This document shows positions 2,368-8,096 of a stretch of 40,250 nt of DNA, in pieces. This DNA comes from Candidatus Korobacteraceae bacterium (lineage in GTDB: Bacteria; Acidobacteriota; Terriglobia; Terriglobales; Acidobacteriaceae). The stretch covers positions 1 through 40,250 of the forward strand of contig JBEKQR010000001.1 in the NCBI GenBank assembly GCA_049519515.1, in the 5' to 3' direction. The notes under the pieces are model-generated. The model was not told where the DNA came from. It was given only the letters and a program-made list of their open reading frames with translations, and ran no database searches. Every line of letters begins with the position of its first letter. The first letter of the stretch is position 1. The translations under genes and the position numbers were made by a program.

Positions 2368-3477
2368 TCACCGCTCTTCTCCTCCGACCGGCGAGCCGGC
2401 CTGGAAGCCGGTCGCCAGGCTAGCTGCCCGGCCGAAACCGGCATCTTCCGCCTGCAGAGCCGGCGAGAGCAGGACGTAGGCCGACAGCGCCGTGCGCCGC
2501 GAATCCGGGTACATGAACCGCAGATCGCGAAATCGCACCAGGTAGCCCGGCTCGTTTCCACCGAGGCGCTCGGTTTCCACCAGCGGATATTGCGCCCAGT
2601 TCAGATACACCTGGCCCAATCGGGTGTCATCGGCGGCCCTGCTTGCCGGCGTCGGCTCGGGCTTTCGGTAGACGCGCGCGCGTCCTTGAGGATCAACTGC
2701 CGGAGCCAGCGAGTCGACGTACATCGCCGTGTAACTGTCGCCCGTGTCCACCAGGCCATACCAGGCGAAAGGGTTCACCATGTAGGGAAAAGCGGAGACG
2801 CGCACGGGCACGCGCCCGTGATATTCGAGCGCCTCGATGGCGTATACTGCCCGGCGATGCTCGTAGTCGCGCACTGCCCACAGCGCCGCCATCAACACCA
2901 GAGCTACGATGGCGCCCAAGCGGCCACGCGGGCCCCTGGAACGCGCCCCAATCTCCCGGTTGATCAGCGCAAACAGCGCGGGCAGAGTCAGACCTGCGAT
3001 CAGGAACAGCAGCAGCAGGGGTTCCACGATAAAGACGATGTCCCAGGAGTACCATTTTGGCCACCAGGGCCAGAGCGGACGCAGACCATAGCTGTTGGTG
3101 AAATCAAGCAGCAAGTGACTGTATCCCGCGATGCAGGCGAACAGGTAAAGCAATCCCCAGCGCGGCCGGGCTGCGGGGTCTGCCGCCTTTGCGTCTGCCG
3201 CGTTGGGAGACGAGTGTGGGCGCTTGCGTGGCCAGAAACGATAGACGGTGAACACAACCGCGATCACCAGCGCCGCCACCAGCGGAATGCCCCAAATGGT
3301 GTGCGTCGCCCCACGATGGCAGGCAAAACCCGTGACGGAGCCCTTCGCGTAGGCCGCCCAATCGATGTCCGGAGCCTCCGCCGCCAGCGTCATGGTGACC
3401 GTGGCAAGCGCGGTCTTGCGGTTGAACCCGGAGCGTGCCAGGCAGGCTCCGGTGAGAAAGTGCGTGACCGGTTCCAT
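2368..3477 (-). CDS. membrane-bound metal-dependent hydrolase, YdjM/DUF457 family (long form)
   Basis: MEPVTHFLTGACLARSG...EAPDIDW...HRGATHT is the YdjM-type signature, followed by several TM helices. The ORF-track start at 3525 would translate the CCCTA-type repeat, so ATG 3477 is preferred. Confidence 0.7.
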   Translation of the reverse strand: MEPVTHFLTGACLARSGFNRKTALATVTMTLAAEAPDIDWAAYAKGSVTGFACHRGATHTIWGIPLVAALVIAVVFTVYRFWPRKRPHSSPNAADAKAADPAARPRWGLLYLFACIAGYSHLLLDFTNSYGLRPLWPWWPKWYSWDIVFIVEPLLLLFLIAGLTLPALFALINREIGARSRGPRGRLGAIVALVLMAALWAVRDYEHRRAVYAIEALEYHGRVPVRVSAFPYMVNPFAWYGLVDTGDSYTAMYVDSLAPAVDPQGRARVYRKPEPTPASRAADDTRLGQVYLNWAQYPLVETERLGGNEPGYLVRFRDLRFMYPDSRRTALSAYVLLSPALQAEDAGFGRAASLATGFQAGSPVGGEER

Positions 3478-3597: not shown

Positions 3598-4552
3598 GCG
3601 GCGGCATCAGCAGGGTGAGCGCGCGCGGCACGATGGCAATCTCAGCCGGCATGCCGTTCAGCACCTCTCCATCCGCCTGCGCCCGAATGCCGGCCGTGGA
3701 AACGCCGGCCAGGGCGCGACAACGAACGCACAGCGCCCGGGTGAACTCGACGGTTGGCGGCTGTCCTGCCGAGTCCGGCGCGGCCCCGCGCACGATGGCC
3801 GAAACCGCGTAACGAAACAGCGCCCAGCGGCTGCACGGCTTCACCGTGACCAGTTGCAGGTAATCGCGGTCCAGCGCTCCCCCCGGACGCCAGCGGCTCA
3901 GCCACTTGCCGAACGAACGCACGCGCATGGCCACCACTTCCAGCACCTGCTCGCAGCGCACCGAGCCGTCCGGCAGCACGATCTCGACAGCGAAGGGAAC
4001 AAACTGGTGCAGGAAGATCCGCGAAAACCCGGCAATATAGTATGTGGCAAACCCGCCATGCTGCTTGCTGCGCGCGCTGGCGTCGTAGATCAGCCCGGCA
4101 TGAGCGCCAATTCCCGCGGCCACCGAAAAATAGGTCGGTTGCCCGCCTGGCCAGCCGAGTTGCCCGGCGGCCACGCGGCGCGGCGCGTAGCTTAGCACCG
4201 CGCGGGCCGCGGCTTGCACGTCCATGGGAAGCCCCAGATCGTTGGCCAGAACGTTGGCTGTTCCCAGGGGCAGGACGCCCAGGGCGACTTGTTCCGGGCC
4301 GTGCACCATGCCTTGCAGCACGTCGTAAACCGTGCCATCGCCGCCGCAGGCAAAGATGGCGTCGAAGCCGCGGGCCATGGCCGCCCGGGCTTGCTTCCCT
4401 CCCTCTCCGGCGGCGCGGGTGGCTTCGAGCTCGACCTCGACGCCGGCGGAACGAAAGACCTGGGCCGCGGCCAGCAGCGCGGCTTCCTGCCTGCGGTGCG
4501 CGCGGCCCGCCATTGGGTTATACAGCAGCAGTGCTTGGCGAAAGGATGGCAT
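3581..4552 (-). CDS. diacylglycerol/lipid kinase family protein (YegS/BmrU type)
   Basis: Motifs LLYNPMAGR, FACGGDGTV and GVLPLGTANVLA of the DAGK catalytic domain. Start overlaps the mogA stop (TGATG). Confidence 0.8.
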   Translation of the reverse strand: MPSFRQALLLYNPMAGRAHRRQEAALLAAAQVFRSAGVEVELEATRAAGEGGKQARAAMARGFDAIFACGGDGTVYDVLQGMVHGPEQVALGVLPLGTANVLANDLGLPMDVQAAARAVLSYAPRRVAAGQLGWPGGQPTYFSVAAGIGAHAGLIYDASARSKQHGGFATYYIAGFSRIFLHQFVPFAVEIVLPDGSVRCEQVLEVVAMRVRSFGKWLSRWRPGGALDRDYLQLVTVKPCSRWALFRYAVSAIVRGAAPDSAGQPPTVEFTRALCVRCRALAGVSTAGIRAQADGEVLNGMPAEIAIVPRALTLLMPPPGGRE

Positions 4553-5031
4553 CAGGCGGAGTGCGCGGTATGGCCGCGCAGCAAGTCGAGGGCATGCGGC
4601 AATAGGCCAAAAACGGCGGAGAGAGATTCGACCGCCCCCTTGGGACTGCCGGGCACGTTCAGGATCAGCGAGCGTCCGCGAATGCCGCAGAGCCCGCGGC
4701 TCAGGGCGGCAAGCGGGGTTTTCTTCGCGCCCTCGGCGCGCATGCGCTCGGAGACGCCCTCGACCAGGCGCGTGCAGACGCCGCGCGTAGCCTCGGGCGT
4801 AACGTCGCGGGCGGCGATCCCCGTGCCTCCCGTGGTCACCACCAGTTCGGCGGTAGCGCAGTGCCGGATCAGCATCGCCTGGATCTGCTCGACCTCATCG
4901 GGCACTATCTCCACGGCCACGACCTGGAAGCCATTAGCCTCCAGGAACTGCCGCAGCGCCGGGCCGCTCGAATCCACGCTCTCGCCGCGCGAGCAGCGAT
5001 CGCTAACGGTGATCACCGCTGCCTTAGGCAT
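4552..5031 (-). CDS. mogA: molybdopterin adenylyltransferase, MogA/MoaB family
   Basis: 159 aa. AAVITVSDR..., VVTTGGTGIAARDVTPEA and NVPGSPKGA are typical MoCF-biosynthesis (MogA) motifs. Confidence 0.8.
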   Translation of the reverse strand: MPKAAVITVSDRCSRGESVDSSGPALRQFLEANGFQVVAVEIVPDEVEQIQAMLIRHCATAELVVTTGGTGIAARDVTPEATRGVCTRLVEGVSERMRAEGAKKTPLAALSRGLCGIRGRSLILNVPGSPKGAVESLSAVFGLLPHALDLLRGHTAHSA

Positions 5032-5037
5032 AAATGT

Positions 5038-5532
5038 TTATTTGCTCCGCCTCGGCTGCTTTCGCGACCCGCGCTTATAAGAGCCGCTTTTGCCGCCCGT
5101 CTTGCTCTCCAGGACAACTTCACGGATTTCGATCCCCTTATCCAAAGCTTTGCACATGTCGTAAACCGTCAGGGCGGCGACGGACGCCGCCGTCATGGCT
5201 TCCATCTCTACCCCGGTCACGGCGGTGGTGCTGGCCGAAGCGCGAATGCGGACGCCATTCTCGCACAGCTCGATATCGACGGCAACGTGGGAGAGCGGAA
5301 TCGGATGGCACATCGGCACCAGCTCCGAGGTGCGCTTGGCGGCCATGATTCCCGCCACCCGCGCTACCTCCAGGGGATCGCCCTTGGGATTGCGCGGCAG
5401 GGCCGCCAGCACATCAGGACTCATGCGGACCATGGCCGTGGCTACTGCCGTGCGCTTGCTGGCCGTCTTGCCGGAGACATCCACCATGCGCGCGCGTCCG
5501 CGGTTATCGTAATGGGAGAGCTTCTGCGCCAT
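5038..5532 (-). CDS. moaC: cyclic pyranopterin monophosphate synthase MoaC
   Basis: From the internal ATG at 5532: [22 protein letters not shown]...[11 protein letters not shown]...[24 protein letters not shown], the canonical MoaC sequence. The upstream 119 codons of the ORF-track ORF are low-complexity and not MoaC-like. Confidence 0.85.
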
Positions 5533-5771
5533 GCAAACAGTTTCAAGTTTCGAGTCAAGAGTTTCAAGTTGAAAAAATAATTTCCGATTGGCAGCCTGGA
5601 GCCGTGAAGCCCGAGAACTGCCCCATCTATGACGCAGATCGGCGTTGTCAAGCTGGTTTTTGTCTGCGCCACGATCAATTTTGGGAACACGACGACGCCC
5701 GAGCCGAGAACTGCTTTTTCTCTTCCCCAGCGTTTTTGTTTTTGTCTTTCGTCGCTGCCGACCAAGGCTCG

Positions 5772-5933
5772 CGTCTCTAATCGTTACGATGGAACCACCC
5801 GGTTCCACCAGCCATCTATTCGATCCCGCAAGGGGACCATGATTAACCGATCCGAACTCCCGCCCAGTGACGGGAGGCAGGGTGCTCAATCACTACAATC
5901 GAGGATCAACTTCACCCCAGTGGGGCAGTCGGC
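5772..5933 (-). ncRNA. candidate IS110-family bridge/seek RNA (3' non-coding tail of the IS)
   Basis: About 160 nt between the transposase stop and the inner edge of the IR, with no plausible ORF and dense with hairpins. Examples: TGGAACC-N4-GGTTCCA at 5790-5807, CTCCCG-N8-CGGGAG at 5857-5876, CCCC-N3-GGGG at 5915-5925. Confidence 0.35.
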
Positions 5934-6953
5934 TTACCCTGCATGCGAACCGGACCCGAACATGGCCCCATAATCGAGTCCGCGAATCCACATCCACCAC
6001 AAGCGCACCGCCAGCTTGCGCGCCACCGCTATGGTGGCAATCTGCCGATTCTTCTTCATGGCCAGGCGCCGCCAGCAGCGCCCCAACTCCGGCTCGTGCC
6101 GTACCGCAATGTGGGCCGCCTCGGCCAGCAAGCCCCGCAACAGGGCGTTACCTTGCTTGCTGATTCGCCCTAGCCGTTGCTTGCCGCCACTGCTCGCCTC
6201 CTGGGGAATCAACCCCAGATAACTGGCCAGGTGCCGGCCAGAGGCAAAGCGCTGTGGATCCCCAATGGTCAGCACGAACGTCAGCGCCGTCACTTCGCCT
6301 ACTCCCGGATGAGTCATCAACCGCTGCACTTGCTCCCCGGCCGCCTGATCCCTGACCGCCTGGTCCAGCGGTCGGCCCAGTTCGCACAGTTGATCGTGCA
6401 ACTGCAGCAACTCCTGTCGCCGCCGTCCTGCCCAGGGCAGTAGCGGCAGCGCCTGCAACTCGGCCCGCCCCGCCCGACTCCACAGCTTCTTCTTCTGACA
6501 CAGCCCCTGGTTCATCGCCAGCGCCTGCAACTGGTTCTTTACCCGGGTGCGCATCTGCACCAGCCGATGCCGATGCAGCACCAGTTGCCGCAAGTCCCGT
6601 TCCACCAAGCTCGGCCGCCACACCCGCGGAAAACGCTCCTCCCACAACAGCTTCAGAATGTGCTCAGCATCGCGGCTGTCGGTCTTCTGCTTGCGTACCA
6701 TCTGGGCACGAATCTCGGCCGGATCCCCGGTCCATAACTCGTGCCCCAGTTCTCCCAGCAGCCGCTCGAACCACAAGCTCTGCCCGCTGGCCTCTATGCC
6801 TACTCGTACCCTTTGGCCCACCAGACGGCGATAAAACCGTTCTGCCTCCCCGTCGGCGTGCTCCAGACGAGCCGTGCCATACTCGCCTGTATCGCTGTTG
6901 ACAAAAGCAATTTGCTGAAACCTCGGGTGGTAATCACAGCCTATAATCCACAT
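5934..6953 (-). CDS. IS110-family DEDD transposase/recombinase
   Basis: 339 aa. N-terminal MWIIGCDYH...VGIEASG...D segment (RuvC-like DEDD). C-terminal HPGVGEVTALTF...LASYLGLIPQEASSGGKQRLGRISKQGNALLR segment (Transposase_20-like). GGAGGAAGG precedes the ATG. Confidence 0.9.
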   Translation of the reverse strand: MWIIGCDYHPRFQQIAFVNSDTGEYGTARLEHADGEAERFYRRLVGQRVRVGIEASGQSLWFERLLGELGHELWTGDPAEIRAQMVRKQKTDSRDAEHILKLLWEERFPRVWRPSLVERDLRQLVLHRHRLVQMRTRVKNQLQALAMNQGLCQKKKLWSRAGRAELQALPLLPWAGRRRQELLQLHDQLCELGRPLDQAVRDQAAGEQVQRLMTHPGVGEVTALTFVLTIGDPQRFASGRHLASYLGLIPQEASSGGKQRLGRISKQGNALLRGLLAEAAHIAVRHEPELGRCWRRLAMKKNRQIATIAVARKLAVRLWWMWIRGLDYGAMFGSGSHAG

Positions 6954-7036
6954 GATCGGTTCCTTCCTCCCGAGCCTTGGTCTTGTTCAGCGACAACCAA
7001 TGTACTCGGGTCGAGGAGCCGATCGCGTCATGAAAT

Positions 7037-7063
7037 CACTCAAGCCAACAACCGGCTTGAGTG
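7037..7063 (-). terminator. hairpin downstream of the dehydrogenase gene (possible terminator)
   Basis: CACTCAAGCC-N7-GGCTTGAGTG, a perfect 10-bp stem. On the minus strand it is followed by ATTTCAT (weak U-tract). It lies 75 nt past the 7137 stop and just outside the IS repeat. Confidence 0.35.
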
Positions 7064-7098
7064 GGCCACCCACCTGAAAAGCGAAAATCAGAAATATG

Positions 7099-7136
7099 CT
7101 CCCTACCCTATTCCCTATTCCCTAATCCCTACTCCC
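7099..7136. repeat. half copy of the CCCTA-rich repeat
   Basis: CTCCCTACCCTATTCCCTATTCCCTAATCCCTACTCCC abuts the stop codon of the 7137..8096 gene. It has the same CCCTAWW periodicity as 3563-3597. Confidence 0.6.
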
Positions 7137-8096
7137 TTACTTCTTCGGCGACAGGCCGTCCCAGACCTCTACATTTTCCGGCTTGATCTCGATGCCCGAG
7201 CAGTGCGCCTGAAATTCGAGCAGCGTGGCAAAGTCCTTGTCGATATACCCTCCGCCCTTCAGTACGGCATATCCCATGTGCGCTTGCAGGACGTCCCTGG
7301 CGACGGCGCTGGTGGGCATGGGAACGTCGAGCTTCTTACCCAGCGCCAGTCCCAGGTCAAGATCCTTGCGCAGCAGGACCGGGGTGAAGGTCGGGGTGAA
7401 GTCGAGGTTTACATACGCCGGCCCCTTGTAGCGGGTGAAAACCGAGCCCATTACGCTGGCGTTCATGAAAGCCAGGAAGGCGGAGCGGGGCAGGCCCGCT
7501 TTTTCCGCCAGGATTACGATCTCCGCCATGTTCTGGGCCACTACGCCCAGCATGACGTTGTGGCAAATCTTGGCGATCCGCGCCAGCTCGCCTTCCCCCA
7601 CGTAGCTGACGCCCGCTTGCGCGAACATGCTGATGTAAGGACCCGCTTCTGCAAAGGCATCCTTGGGACCGGAGGCGACGGCGCTGAGCTTACCGGCCCT
7701 TACGACCTTGGCGTTGCCACTGACCGGACACGCCAGGAACTTGCAGTCCATGCTCGCCAGCTTCTGCCTGACCTCGGCCGAGGCTTCGATGGAGACCGAG
7801 GTGCAGTCCACCAGGATACGAGGCGCCTTTCCGGCGGAGACCAGACCCTTGGGGCCGATGGTCACCTCTTTGAAATCGTCGGATGCTGCCACCATGGTGA
7901 AAACGATGTCGCATCCCGCCAACTCCGCCGGCGAGTTCACCACCTTGGCTCCGACAGCCGCCAGCGGCTCGGCCTTTGAGCGCGTGCGGTTCCAAACCGC
8001 CAGCTTGCACCCCGCTTTGGCCAGGCACTCCGACATGGCATATCCCATACGGCCGCATCCGATCCAGCCGATAGCGTGCTTGTTCTGTGTCTGCAT
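7137..8096 (-). CDS. NAD(P)-dependent oxidoreductase, 3-hydroxyisobutyrate dehydrogenase (HIBADH/6PGDH NAD-binding) family
   Basis: N-terminal Rossmann motif IGWIGCGRMGYAM. The family's central GxGxxAKxxxN-like block is GEGELARIAKICHN. Confidence 0.8.
   Translation of the reverse strand: MQTQNKHAIGWIGCGRMGYAMSECLAKAGCKLAVWNRTRSKAEPLAAVGAKVVNSPAELAGCDIVFTMVAASDDFKEVTIGPKGLVSAGKAPRILVDCTSVSIEASAEVRQKLASMDCKFLACPVSGNAKVVRAGKLSAVASGPKDAFAEAGPYISMFAQAGVSYVGEGELARIAKICHNVMLGVVAQNMAEIVILAEKAGLPRSAFLAFMNASVMGSVFTRYKGPAYVNLDFTPTFTPVLLRKDLDLGLALGKKLDVPMPTSAVARDVLQAHMGYAVLKGGGYIDKDFATLLEFQAHCSGIEIKPENVEVWDGLSPKK

What the first reader, a model, noticed from the sequence alone, without database searches (positions are those of the whole stretch)
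5772..5933. Hairpin-dense 3' tail of the IS110-type element: candidate bridge/seek guide RNA
IS110-family recombinases are known to use an element-encoded structured RNA (bridge or seek RNA) whose internal loops pair with both target and donor DNA. It is reported at the 5' end in the IS110 subgroup and the 3' end in the IS1111 subgroup.

Here the 5' non-coding part inside the inverted repeat is only about 18 nt. About 160 nt without any ORF follow the stop codon. That tail is packed with stems: TGGAACC/GGTTCCA at 5790-5807, CTCCCG/CGGGAG at 5857-5876, CCCC/GGGG at 5915-5925, and ATCG/CGAT near 5780.

If it is a guide RNA, its loops would encode the insertion specificity of this element, which could then be read and reprogrammed.
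Basis: partly seen in the sequence, partly recalled or inferred. Interest (0 to 1): 0.7.

Follow-up and report, generated by a model that had tools for sequence, protein, structure and literature searches.

The report
Guide RNA of an IS1111-type element
The structured tail after this transposase gene is the element's own guide ("bridge" or "seek") RNA, which pairs with a repeated hairpin in the host genome to choose where the element inserts; this is a clear new example of a mechanism first described in 2024, not a new mechanism.

Summary
The gene at 5934-6953 (minus strand) encodes an IS110-family "RNA-guided transposase". Uninterrupted target sites in other contigs place the true ends at 5625/5626 and 7038. 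The element is 1413-1414 bp, with an 85-nt left end and a 309-nt right end.

It has the IS1111-group hallmarks:
- 14/15-nt subterminal inverted repeats
- a 7-nt left extension
- no target duplication
- a TTGACA-N18-GATGAT promoter that forms only when the two ends are joined.

The RNA spans about 5788-5942 and starts inside the last tnp codons. It has six helices: 91.5% of cells are paired across 58 relatives, and 32 of 41 pairs show compensatory changes. A covariance model built without the window or its closest relatives hits 5765-5950 (140.7 bits, E = 2e-41).

Single-stranded segments match the DNA:
- ACUGCCCCACU pairs with the top strand of the target (AGTGGGGCAGT).
- AGUGAUU matches the left junction.
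- AAUCA pairs with the left end.
- AUAGAUGG matches the right junction.

The target guide and the right-end guide change with their DNA partners across relatives. The other two could not be shown to covary.

The target is the 3' foot of a REP-like hairpin. No expression data exist. This is a new member of a known kind.

The parts
5625..7038 (-). The complete IS1111-group insertion sequence, 1413-1414 bp. The T at 5625 could belong to either the element or the target.
   Evidence: Identical copies lie in different flanks. Uninterrupted target sites read GGCTTGAG^TGGGGCAGTT in L058 and L100-L103. The ends are homologous to those of about 80 relatives.
5934..6953 (-). Transposase/recombinase gene, 339 aa, with the motif GLIPQEASSG
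   Evidence: Pfam PF01548 and PF02371. NCBIfam NF033542, 'IS110 family RNA-guided transposase', 214.8 bits against a cut-off of 140. The C-terminal domain matches the IS621 and ISCro4 structures in the PDB.
5765..5950 (-). Full extent of the covariance-model match to the bridge/seek RNA. The structured core is about 5788-5942.
   Evidence: cmsearch with model R1, built without the window: 140.7 bits, E = 2e-41, the only hit in the window.
5936..5942 (-). Helix P1a, 5' arm GCAGGGU. It spans the last tnp codons and the T of the stop codon, and pairs with 5877-5883 (ACCCUGC). P1a closes the target-binding loop.
   Evidence: All 7 pairs show compensatory changes; 92.6% of cells are paired.
5919..5929 (-). 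Right target guide ACUGCCCCACU. It is complementary to the top strand of the target, AG^TGGGGCAGT.
   Evidence: 11-nt exact match. The guide covaries with the target in relatives. The longest exact match to the element's own target averages 8.1 nt, against 3.9 nt for unrelated targets.
5900..5919 (-). Stem-loop SL0 (UGGGG ... CCUCG), the inner stem of the target-binding loop
   Evidence: 98.3% of cells are paired. At the two inner pairs, 28 and 26 of 58 sequences carry a changed pair (UA/GC/CG, CG/GC). The closing U-G pair is present in 56 of 58 sequences.
5888..5894 (-). Left target guide plus core plus read-through, AG-UG-AUU. It has the same sense as the left junction GAG|TGATT, so it would pair with the bottom strand.
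   Evidence: 7-nt match in the window; 9-11 nt in L099, L034, L051 and L074. Once the shared TGATT is excluded the signal is weak: 3.6 nt for own targets against 2.8 nt for unrelated ones.
5857..5876 (-). Stem-loop SL1 (CUCCCG ... CGGGAG), between the two binding loops
   Evidence: 5 of 6 pairs show compensatory changes. Relatives carry insertions of roughly 60-80 nt within the SL1 hairpin.
5840..5844 (-). Right donor guide AAUCA, complementary to the start of the left end, TGATT (7034-7038)
   Evidence: Seen directly in the sequence. Both partners are nearly invariant in relatives, so no covariation test is possible.
5821..5839 (-). Stem-loop SL2 (UGGUCCC ... GGGAUCG), the inner stem of the donor-binding loop
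   Evidence: 8 of 10 aligned pairs show compensatory changes. The closing U-G pair is present in 58 of 58 sequences.
5812..5819 (-). Left donor guide plus core plus read-through, AUAGA-UG-G. It has the same sense as the right junction CATAGA|TGG.
   Evidence: The RNA pentamer equals the terminal pentamer of the right end in all four classes seen (ATAGA, ATACA, ATCGA, AGAGA), with one exception. The identical run is exactly 5 nt in 13 of 15 cases.
5788..5809 (-). Stem-loop SL3 (GGUGGAACC ... GGUUCCAUC)
   Evidence: 7 of 9 pairs show compensatory changes; 90.9% of cells are paired.
5760..5771 (-). Right arm of the inner inverted repeat, CGAGCCUUGGUC, immediately 3' of the RNA. It is complementary to 6971-6982. 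Function unknown.
   Evidence: It is conserved in position in relatives, with compensatory sequence changes between subclades.
6971..6982 (-). Left arm of the inner inverted repeat, GACCAAGGCUCG, in the tnp 5' UTR. It abuts the ribosome-binding site GGAGGAAGG.
5646..5652 (-). CTTGACA, which holds the -35 box TTGACA of the promoter that forms only in the circular intermediate
   Evidence: It is conserved in relatives. 59 of 60 reconstructed right-end|left-end junctions give TTGACA-17/18-GATGAT; only 1 of 60 linear arrangements gives a promoter.
5629..5643 (-). Subterminal inverted repeat in the right end, GCCGATCTGCGTCAT
   Evidence: Seen in the sequence. It is homologous to the repeats in relatives.
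7018..7031 (-). Subterminal inverted repeat in the left end, ATGACGCGATCGGC. It is preceded by the 7-nt extension TGATTTC (7032-7038).
   Evidence: The 7-nt left extension is a stated feature of the IS1111 family (PMC11187229).
7039..7072 (-). Left part of the target: the REP-like hairpin TGGGTGGCCCACTCAAGCC-GGTTGTT-GGCTTGAG. This is host DNA, not part of the element.
   Evidence: The same hairpin occurs uninterrupted in L058 and L100-L103.
5609..5624 (-). Right part of the target, GGGGCAGTTCTCGGGC (host DNA)
   Evidence: It is contiguous with the hairpin in the uninterrupted sites.

Best explanation
Window 5625/5626-7038 (minus strand) is an intact insertion sequence of the IS1111 group of the IS110 family. 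Its 309-nt right end encodes a bridge RNA, also called a seekRNA, of about 155 nt (about 5788-5942).

**Likely mechanism.** Steps 1, 4 and 5 are inferred by analogy with ISEc11 and IS621. The matches in steps 2 and 3 are shown here by sequence; that they pair as RNA-DNA is inferred.

1. The element excises as a circle. Joining the right end to the left end creates the promoter TTGACA-N18-GATGAT. This promoter transcribes the left end, tnp and the 3' RNA as one transcript, and the guide RNA is then cut out of it.
2. The RNA folds into two modules of the same design: a guide, then an inner stem that opens with UGG and closes with CG, then an A, then a second guide. Both modules present single-stranded guides.
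   - Target-binding module, closed by helix P1. The 5' guide ACUGCCCCACU pairs with the top strand of AG^TGGGGCAGT. The 3' guide AG-UG pairs with the bottom strand of the left flank plus core, and reads on into AUU, which is the start of the left end.
   - Donor-binding module. AAUCA pairs with the top strand of the left-end start, TGATT. AUAGA-UG pairs with the bottom strand of the right-end terminus plus core, and reads on into G, which is the start of the right flank.
3. All four guides cover a shared TG core. The two 3' guides therefore match the two recombinant junctions exactly: AG|TGATT and ATAGA|TGG.
4. The DEDD/serine recombinase exchanges strands at the core. The circle is inserted, without duplication, at the 3' foot of a REP-like hairpin (GGCTTGAG^TGGGGCAGTT).
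5. Changing the guides retargets the element. Its relatives have done this naturally.
For: **Element identity and ends**
- Pfam and NCBIfam place the protein in the IS110 family of RNA-guided transposases.
- Identical copies sit in different flanks.
- Uninterrupted target sites exist: L058 and four metagenome contigs found with the predicted joined sequence.
- The element has subterminal repeats, a 7-nt left extension, and a right end far longer than the left (309 against 85 nt).
- 59 of 60 reconstructed junctions form a sigma-70-type promoter, against 1 of 60 linear arrangements.

**RNA structure**
- RNAalifold finds helices in which 19 of 24 pairs show compensatory changes.
- For the six-helix model, 91.5% of cells are paired against 79.0% in shuffles (0 of 500 shuffles reach it).
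- 32 of 41 pairs show compensatory changes, and sliding the partners drops pairing to 36-49%.
- Conserved U-G closing pairs (56/58 and 58/58) and frequent G-U pairs fit only the tnp-sense strand.
- An independent covariance model hits 5765-5950 at E = 2e-41.

**Guides**
- The window's guide matches its target over 11 nt.
- Close relatives show retargeting:

| Relative | Guide | Target |
|---|---|---|
| L088 (86% identical transposase) | GUGGCCCAC | TGGGCCAC |
| L091 | GUAGCCCAG | C^TGGGCTA |
| L099 | UCUGCCAA and CGGUUUUGA | CCGGTTT^TGGCAGA |

- Across 63 loci the longest exact match to the element's own target averages 8.1 nt, against 3.9 nt for unrelated targets.
- The right-end guide tracks the terminal pentamer of the right end in four sequence classes.

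**Published parallels**
- IS1111 elements have long right ends and 7-17-bp subterminal repeats. A bridge RNA is predicted in the right end of 93% of them (PMC11208160).
- In IS1111 seekRNAs the top-strand match lies 5' of the bottom-strand match, and the two overlap in the target (PMC11187229).
- The strand rule in IS621 is the same: left guides pair with the bottom strand, right guides with the top strand (PMC11208158).
Against: - There is no expression, processing or protein-binding evidence for this RNA.
- No promoter-like site was found in the integrated element.
- The left target guide is short, and its covariation is weak once the shared TGATT is excluded: 3.6 against 2.8 nt.
- The right donor guide AAUCA and its partner TGATT hardly vary, so that pairing is untestable by covariation.
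- AAUCA can also pair within the RNA, with UGAUU or with the 3' GAUU. The helix that closes the donor module is unresolved.
- Folding energy alone is not unusual, z = -1.47.
- No Rfam family matches.
- The metagenomic contigs used for the flanks may be chimeric across the repeat.
- Some natural insertion sites match the guides imperfectly, for example L023, L024 and L013.
Confidence: 0.9

Rival explanations
1. The tail is a structured 3' untranslated region. It might stabilise the mRNA, terminate transcription, or give the transposase a scaffold, but it does not read DNA by base pairing. Target choice would be made by the protein.
For: No expression or binding data exist. Folding energy is not exceptional. 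Two of the four proposed guides (LTG, RDG) have weak or untestable covariation.
Against: The 9-11-nt segment 5' of SL0 changes in step with the right flank across at least ten target classes: 8.1 nt for own targets against 3.9 nt for unrelated ones. The pentamer 5' of UGG tracks the terminus of the right end. The protein is an equivalog of RNA-guided transposases. No terminator-like site lies on this strand in the tail.
Confidence: 0.04
2. The matches are features of the DNA, not of an RNA. The right end would carry internal copies of target and end sequences that act as protein-binding sites, or that are leftovers of earlier recombination. The hairpins would be DNA cruciforms or simple inverted repeats.
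For: The element does contain DNA-level inverted repeats: the subterminal repeats and a conserved inner repeat. A further target-like stretch sits deeper in the right end at 5696-5714.
Against: The helices tolerate G-U but not A-C. The closing pairs are U-G in 56/58 and 58/58 sequences, and G-C alternates with G-U in 13 to 25 sequences at several other pairs. That pattern is strand-specific and typical of RNA. Stems keep their pairing while their sequence changes and while their loops accept inserts of roughly 60-80 nt. The guide arrangement matches experimentally validated seekRNAs and bridge RNAs (PMC11187229, PMC11208158).
Confidence: 0.03
3. The hairpins are chance features of a GC-rich non-coding stretch and have no function.
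For: The MFE z-score is only -1.47.
Against: Sequence and structure are conserved in about 80 relatives down to 54% transposase identity. The independent covariance model gives E = 2e-41.
Confidence: 0.01

Closest known systems
seekRNAs of IS1111-family elements (ISEc11, ISPa11, ISKpn4, ISPst6; Siddiquee et al. 2024, PMC11187229)
   Same: - The RNA lies directly downstream of tnp in a long 3' non-coding region.
- The transposase is about 340 aa and carries the GL-P----SG motif.
- The element has subterminal inverted repeats, a 7-nt left extension, no target duplication and a junction promoter.
- The top-strand match lies 5' of the bottom-strand match, and the two overlap at the insertion point.
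- Close relatives are naturally retargeted, like the ISEc11/ISXne4 pair.
- The target is a REP, as for ISPa11.
- The structured core of about 155 nt is close to the 154-nt 'long seekRNA' of ISEc11.
   Different: - The host phylum differs (Acidobacteriota MAGs).
- Transposase identity to the IS1111-family members found on plasmids (IS4321, IS5075) is about 30%.
- The RNA starts inside the last tnp codons.
- A second, conserved inner inverted repeat links the 3' flank of the RNA to the tnp 5' UTR. I did not find this described, though I did not search the papers for it specifically.
- Nothing here is tested experimentally.
IS621 bridge RNA (IS110 group; Durrant et al. 2024, PMC11208160; Hiraizumi et al. 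2024, PMC11208158)
   Same: - There are two modules, one for the target and one for the donor. Each carries two guides that read opposite strands on either side of a shared core dinucleotide.
- Left guides pair with the bottom strand and right guides with the top strand.
- Some guide extensions match the recombinant product, which resembles 'handshake' pairing.
[quoted passage not shown]
- The C-terminal domain of the recombinase is homologous.
   Different: - The RNA is at the 3' end, not the 5' end.
- The order of guides within each module is reversed: the right guide lies on the 5' side.
- The core is TG, not CT.
- The subterminal repeats are long.
- The product-matching extensions sit on the left guides rather than next to the right guides.
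- Only the C-terminal half of the protein aligns to IS621 by sequence.
REP-targeting IS110-family elements (ISPpu9/ISPpu10 of Pseudomonas putida, PMC12288879; Tobes and Pareja 2006, as cited in PMC11208160)
   Same: Site-specific insertion at a fixed position in repetitive extragenic palindromes. Circular intermediates. Structured 5' UTRs that affect tnp translation.
   Different: ISPpu9 has its own tnp promoter, an antisense sRNA (Asr9) and a hitch-hiking sRNA module (ssr9), and forms no junction promoter. The present element shows the classic junction promoter and a 3' guide RNA.

Membership tests
IS1111 group of the IS110 family (element level) | DEDD (RuvC-like) N-terminal domain plus a PF02371 C-terminal domain | tested here: met
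   PF01548 E = 1.8e-13 and PF02371 E = 2.7e-27. NF033542 scores 214.8 bits against a cut-off of 140.
IS1111 group of the IS110 family (element level) | Transposase of 330-350 aa with the GL-P----S(t)G motif (PMC11187229) | tested here: met
   339 aa. The motif GLIPQEASSG is in the translation. The G, L, P, S and G columns are invariant in relatives.
IS1111 group of the IS110 family (element level) | Subterminal inverted repeats of 7-17 bp, with a 7-bp extension at the left end | tested here: met
   TGATTTC + ATGACGC-GATCGGC (7018-7038) against GCCGATCTGCGTCAT + AGA(T) (5625-5643). The repeats are 14 and 15 nt and differ by one indel.
IS1111 group of the IS110 family (element level) | The long non-coding region lies downstream of tnp (right end longer than left end) | tested here: met
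   Right end 309 nt, left end 85 nt, after the ends were corrected.
IS1111 group of the IS110 family (element level) | Site-specific insertion without target duplication | tested here: met
   Uninterrupted sites read GGCTTGAG^TGGGGCAGTT. Only a single ambiguous T is shared.
IS1111 group of the IS110 family (element level) | [quoted passage not shown] | tested here: met
   In silico only. The window gives TTGACA-18-GATGAT. 59 of 60 relatives' junctions form a promoter, against 1 of 60 linear arrangements. The circle itself was not observed.
IS1111 group of the IS110 family (element level) | Transposase related over its full length to IS1111-family transposases | tested here: inconclusive
   About 30% identity to IS4321 and IS5075 over residues 51-330, whereas IS621 aligns only over residues 183-327. 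No phylogeny with ISfinder references was made.
Bridge RNA / seekRNA | A conserved structured RNA in the non-coding end, supported by covariation | tested here: met
   (91.5% paired; 32 of 41 pairs with compensatory changes; shuffle and slide controls). (E = 2e-41 with a model that excludes the window).
Bridge RNA / seekRNA | Two segments complementary to opposite strands of the target, overlapping at the insertion point, and covarying with the target | tested here: met
   The right target guide is strongly supported. The left target guide is present but short, and its covariation is weak.
Bridge RNA / seekRNA | Segments matching the donor, that is, the two ends of the element | tested here: met
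   The left donor guide equals the terminal pentamer of the right end in four covarying classes. The right donor guide AAUCA is complementary to TGATT, but both are invariant.
Bridge RNA / seekRNA | The RNA is expressed, is processed and binds the recombinase | not testable with these tools
   No transcriptome or biochemical data are available. No promoter-like site was found in the integrated copy.
Bridge RNA / seekRNA | The RNA is required for excision and insertion, and retargets the element when reprogrammed | not testable with these tools
   Only natural retargeting among relatives was observed.
Any curated Rfam family | A match at or above the family's gathering score | tested here: not met
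   Only two chance-level matches (E = 0.89 and 1.4), both far below their gathering scores.
IS110 group proper (IS621-like, 5' bridge RNA) | A long left end that encodes the RNA upstream of the recombinase gene, with very short subterminal repeats | tested here: not met
   The left end is 85 nt. It is filled by the subterminal repeat and a 5' UTR hairpin. The RNA is downstream of the gene.

The most novel reading that the evidence does not exclude
A 12-nt stretch immediately 3' of the guide RNA (5760-5771) is complementary to the tnp 5' UTR right next to the ribosome-binding site (6971-6982). The pairing is kept by compensatory changes across the whole clade. It may be a functional RNA-RNA interaction. 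It could act in cis, as a 5'-3' clamp or an RNase III-type processing site that releases the guide RNA. It could act in trans, with the long form of the guide RNA serving as an antisense regulator. Either way it would couple guide-RNA maturation to transposase translation. I know of no such autoregulatory layer described for IS1111 or IS110 bridge systems.
Probability: 0.2. Interest if true: 0.55.

Novelty: new member of a known kind. Interest (0 to 1): 0.35.

Why it matters
RNA-guided recombinases of the IS110/IS1111 family are being developed as programmable tools for inserting DNA.

This locus adds a fully dissected natural example from Acidobacteriota:
- exact ends
- target: the 3' foot of a REP hairpin
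- core: TG
- four guide segments
- a six-helix scaffold.

It comes with a series of close relatives (54-86% identical transposases) whose guides have been rewritten by nature for at least ten different targets. Such a series shows which RNA positions are programmable and which belong to the scaffold.

It also corrects the annotation. The element is 1413-1414 bp, and the REP hairpin next to it is host DNA.

For basic biology it is confirmatory: a bridge RNA is already predicted in the right end of 93% of catalogued IS1111 elements. The conserved pairing between the 5' UTR and the 3' tail is the only part that may lead somewhere new.

Tried and rejected
- **Rfam scan of 5000-7600** at a permissive threshold: nothing meaningful.
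- **Single-sequence folding:** the energy is not significant. The MFE fold pairs UGAUUGAGC with GGUUAAUCA, a helix that comparative data do not support.
- **First boundary estimate.** I first took the repeat shared by identical copies (5616-7072, 1457 bp) as the element. I rejected this when relatives showed that the left end always starts at TGATT, and when the hairpin plus GGGGCAGTT turned up uninterrupted elsewhere.
rejected. It is internal.
- **Empty site for this exact locus.** The metagenome scan with the predicted joined sequence returned four other REP copies, not the window's own locus. BLAST of the window flanks against them gave no hits. The junction sequence is therefore confirmed, but the pre-insertion allele of this locus was not found.
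- **Closing helix for the donor module.** Both xAAUC/GAUUx and UGAUU/AAUCA were tested and both were inconclusive, because the core bases never vary.
- **G-U against A-C bias in the inner inverted repeat,** to decide between an RNA and a DNA role: 21 against 11, not decisive.
- **Pfam scan of the short RAYT-like ORF next to an empty REP:** no hit. Its homology to a PF01797 gene was shown by BLASTP instead.
- **Promoter scan of the integrated element:** none found.
Full report
**1. Observation**

The stretch 5772-5933 lies directly after the stop codon of a 339-aa ORF (5934-6953, minus strand). The ORF carries DEDD_Tnp_IS110 and Transposase_20 domains. It scores as NCBIfam NF033542, "IS110 family RNA-guided transposase": 214.8 bits against a cut-off of 140.

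As a single sequence the region does not fold unusually well. The z-score is -1.47, and 23 of 200 shuffles fold at least as well. No Rfam family matches. Sequence alone therefore gives a weak observation. The case rests on comparison with related elements.

**2. True ends of the element**

Contigs encoding the identical protein (L001-L007) share window 5616-7072 and then diverge into three different left flanks and two different right flanks. That suggested a 1457-bp unit.

About 80 relatives from Acidobacteriota MAGs (54-67% identical transposases) and closer metagenomic relatives (68-86%) changed this picture. In all of them the left end starts at TGAT(T/G). It is usually preceded by a hairpin whose sequence differs from family to family.

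In L058 the window's hairpin occurs uninterrupted: GGGTGGCCCACTCAAGCC-CGGTTTT-GGCTTGAGTGGGGCAGTTC. A metagenome scan with the predicted joined sequence GGCTTGAGTGGGGCAGTTCTCGGGC found four more uninterrupted copies. These are other REP copies, not this locus's own empty allele.

Hence 7039-7072 and 5609-5624 are host DNA, a REP-like repeat. The element is 5625/5626-7038, 1413-1414 bp, with one ambiguous T.

- The left end is 85 nt: TGATTTC, then the subterminal repeat ATGACGC-GATCGGC, then the 5' UTR.
- The right end is 309 nt and finishes with GCCGATCTGCGTCAT-AGA(T).
- There is no target duplication.

The REP-like repeats sit next to RAYT-like Y1-transposase genes in L095/L096 and L100. This fits the known habit of IS110-family elements of inserting into REPs (reference list of PMC11208160; PMC12288879).

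**3. Junction promoter**

CTTGACA is conserved about 27 nt from the right terminus. Joining the right end to the left end in silico gives TTGACA-N18-GATGAT in the window.

A promoter that spans the junction forms in 59 of 60 distinct relatives. Only 1 of 60 linear arrangements (right end plus flank) gives one. The integrated element has no promoter-like site.

This matches the Pjunc promoter described for ISEc11 and IS621 (PMC11187229, PMC11208158). It also supports the assignment of the ends independently.

**4. RNA structure**

The tails of relatives align from the last tnp codons to the inner repeat. RNAalifold recovers the helices called here P1b, SL0, SL1, SL2 and SL3; 19 of its 24 pairs show compensatory changes.

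I added helix P1a: GCAGGGU at 5936-5942 pairs with ACCCUGC at 5877-5883. On alignment A3 (58 sequences) the six-helix model gives:

| Measure | Observed | Control |
|---|---|---|
| Cells paired | 91.5% | 79.0% in shuffles (0 of 500 reach the observed value) |
| Pairs with compensatory changes | 32 of 41 | 23.4 on average in shuffles |
| Cells paired after sliding partners 1-3 columns | - | 36-49% |

The closing pairs of SL0 and SL2 are U-G in 56/58 and 58/58 sequences. G-C alternates with G-U at several other pairs. This pattern makes sense only on the tnp-sense strand, and it argues for RNA rather than duplex DNA.

Relatives carry insertions of roughly 60-80 nt within the SL1 hairpin.

A covariance model was built from 34 relatives with transposases no more than 73% identical. 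The window and its closest relatives were left out. It finds one hit in the 40-kb window: 5765-5950, minus strand, 140.7 bits, E = 2e-41.

**5. Guides**

With the corrected target GGCTTGAG^TGGGGCAGTT, four single-stranded segments line up with the DNA.

(a) **Right target guide.** ACUGCCCCACU (5919-5929) lies between P1 and SL0. It is complementary to the top strand AG^TGGGGCAGT, an 11-nt match.

(b) **Left target guide.** AG-UG-AUU (5888-5894) lies between SL0 and the 3' arm of P1. It has the sense of the left junction GAG|TGATT.

(c) **Right donor guide.** AAUCA (5840-5844) lies 5' of SL2 and is complementary to the left-end start TGATT.

(d) **Left donor guide.** AUAGA-UG-G (5812-5819) lies 3' of SL2. 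It has the sense of the right junction CATAGA|TGG.

The two modules share one design: a guide, then an inner stem that opens with UGG and closes with CG, then an A, then a second guide. All four guides cover a TG that is common to the target (G^TG) and to the donor junction (A^TG). I read this TG as the core dinucleotide.

*Covariation of the guides with their DNA partners:*

- Relatives with 86%, 73% and 68% identical transposases have different guides and correspondingly different targets:

| Relative | Guide(s) | Target |
|---|---|---|
| L088 | GUGGCCCAC | TGGGCCAC |
| L091 | GUAGCCCAG | C^TGGGCTA |
| L095 | GGUGGCCCA | TGGGCCACC |
| L099 | UCUGCCAA and CGGUUUUGA | CCGGTTT^TGGCAGA |

- Over 63 non-redundant loci, the longest exact match between guide (a) and the element's own target averages 8.1 nt. 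It falls at a constant position. For unrelated targets the average is 3.9 nt.
- Guide (d) equals the terminal pentamer of the right end in four classes (ATAGA, ATACA, ATCGA, AGAGA), with one exception. The identity stops after exactly 5 nt in 13 of 15 cases.
- Guide (b) covaries only weakly once the shared TGATT is removed: 3.6 against 2.8 nt.
- Guide (c) and its partner do not vary, so this pairing cannot be tested.

*Comparison with published systems:*

- The order, with the top-strand match 5' of the bottom-strand match and the two overlapping at the insertion point, is what Siddiquee et al. report for IS1111 seekRNAs (PMC11187229).
- The strand rule, right guides on the top strand and left guides on the bottom strand, is that of IS621 (PMC11208158).
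- The helix that closes the donor module remains unresolved.

**6. Mechanism**

- *Shown here:* the ends, the target, the conserved RNA fold on the tnp-sense strand, the guide-DNA complementarities, the covariation of two of the guides, and a promoter that depends on the junction.
- *Inferred by analogy with ISEc11 and IS621:* excision to a circle; transcription from Pjunc through tnp into the RNA; processing of the RNA; binding to the recombinase; strand exchange at the TG core; and insertion at the 3' foot of REP hairpins.
- *Not testable here:* expression of the RNA, its binding to the protein, and whether it is required.

**7. Comparison and novelty**

Durrant et al. predicted bridge RNAs in the right ends of 93% of IS1111-group elements (PMC11208160). 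Siddiquee et al. proved the seekRNA function for four members (PMC11187229).

This element meets every family feature that could be tested. Transposase identity to the IS1111-family members found on plasmids is low, about 30% to IS4321 and IS5075. It is therefore a new member of a known kind, with a useful natural series of retargeted relatives.

**8. What remains unexplained**

- **Inner inverted repeat.** It is conserved in position in all relatives, with subclade-specific and mutually compensating sequences. It links the nucleotides just 3' of the RNA to the 5' UTR next to the ribosome-binding site. The excess of G-U over A-C, 21 against 11, leans towards RNA pairing but is not decisive.
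- **Second UTR hairpin.** It pairs the inner half of the left subterminal repeat with the region from the ribosome-binding site to the start codon, and it covaries in relatives. It resembles fold-back inhibition of translation.

These two features are the only part of the locus that might go beyond published descriptions.

Noticed in passing
window 5760-5771 and 6971-6982: A 12-nt stretch just 3' of the guide RNA is perfectly complementary to the tnp 5' UTR next to the ribosome-binding site. The pairing is conserved in position in all relatives, with compensating sequence changes between subclades. Its role is unknown: it could be RNA processing, translation control, or a DNA site.
   Followed up: partly
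window 7015-7024 with 6954-6963: The inner half of the left subterminal repeat (GAUCGGCUCC) can pair with the region from the ribosome-binding site to the start codon (GGAACCGAUC). Relatives keep 8-13 bp of this pairing with covarying sequences. It looks like fold-back inhibition of transposase translation.
   Followed up: partly
window 7039-7072 and 5609-5624; L058 2166-2210; L100 about 2985-3035; L102; L103: The insertion target is a REP-like hairpin repeat, GGGTGGCCCACTCAAGCC-N7-GGCTTGAGTGGGGCAGTTCTCGGGC. Uninterrupted copies lie next to RAYT-like Y1-transposase genes. The L100 ORF at 3049-3291 is 48% identical to the N-terminus of the PF01797 gene in L095.
   Followed up: partly
window 5696-5714: Inside the right-end spacer, GCAGTTCTCGGCTCGGGCG resembles the right arm of the REP target (GCAGTTCTCGGGCG). 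Close relatives do not share it. It could be chance or a captured piece of target.
   Followed up: no
window 5936-5947; protein residues 336-339: The last tnp codons (…CAT GCA GGG TAA, encoding the invariant SHAG C-terminus) double as the 5' arm of RNA helix P1a. The invariance of the protein C-terminus may partly reflect this RNA constraint.
   Followed up: no
window 5038-5889 (minus-strand ORF); L001 gene 1474-2244: The downstream moaC reading frame stays open upstream into the element's tail. Gene callers therefore produced a 256-aa 'MoaC' that overlaps the guide-RNA region. The real start is probably the ATG near 5531.
   Followed up: no
L009-L012, L014 right ends (about 3740-3800); window 5725-5757: The spacer between the guide RNA and the right terminus is A-rich and low in complexity. 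In one MAG, copies of the same element differ in the number of AAGAGC hexamer repeats. This is a hypervariable microsatellite inside the element.
   Followed up: no
L070 right end; L048 left end: Two relatives carry tandem partial duplications of an end: CCTTCTCTCTTATCGAGGGGCACCCGG twice in L070, and CCTGATTACATGACAGCGTCGGCTCC twice in L048. These may be scars of abortive or repeated recombination.
   Followed up: no
L016-L019 right junctions: Copies of one element in a single MAG have either TGG or CGG as the first flank bases after the right end. This suggests that a mismatch at the first core position is tolerated, or that heteroduplexes are resolved in different ways.
   Followed up: no
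L100 1838-1883: An Acido-Lenti-1 RNA (RF01687; 47.9 bits, above its gathering score of 37) lies on one of the contigs that carry an uninterrupted target site. This is consistent with an acidobacterial origin.
   Followed up: no
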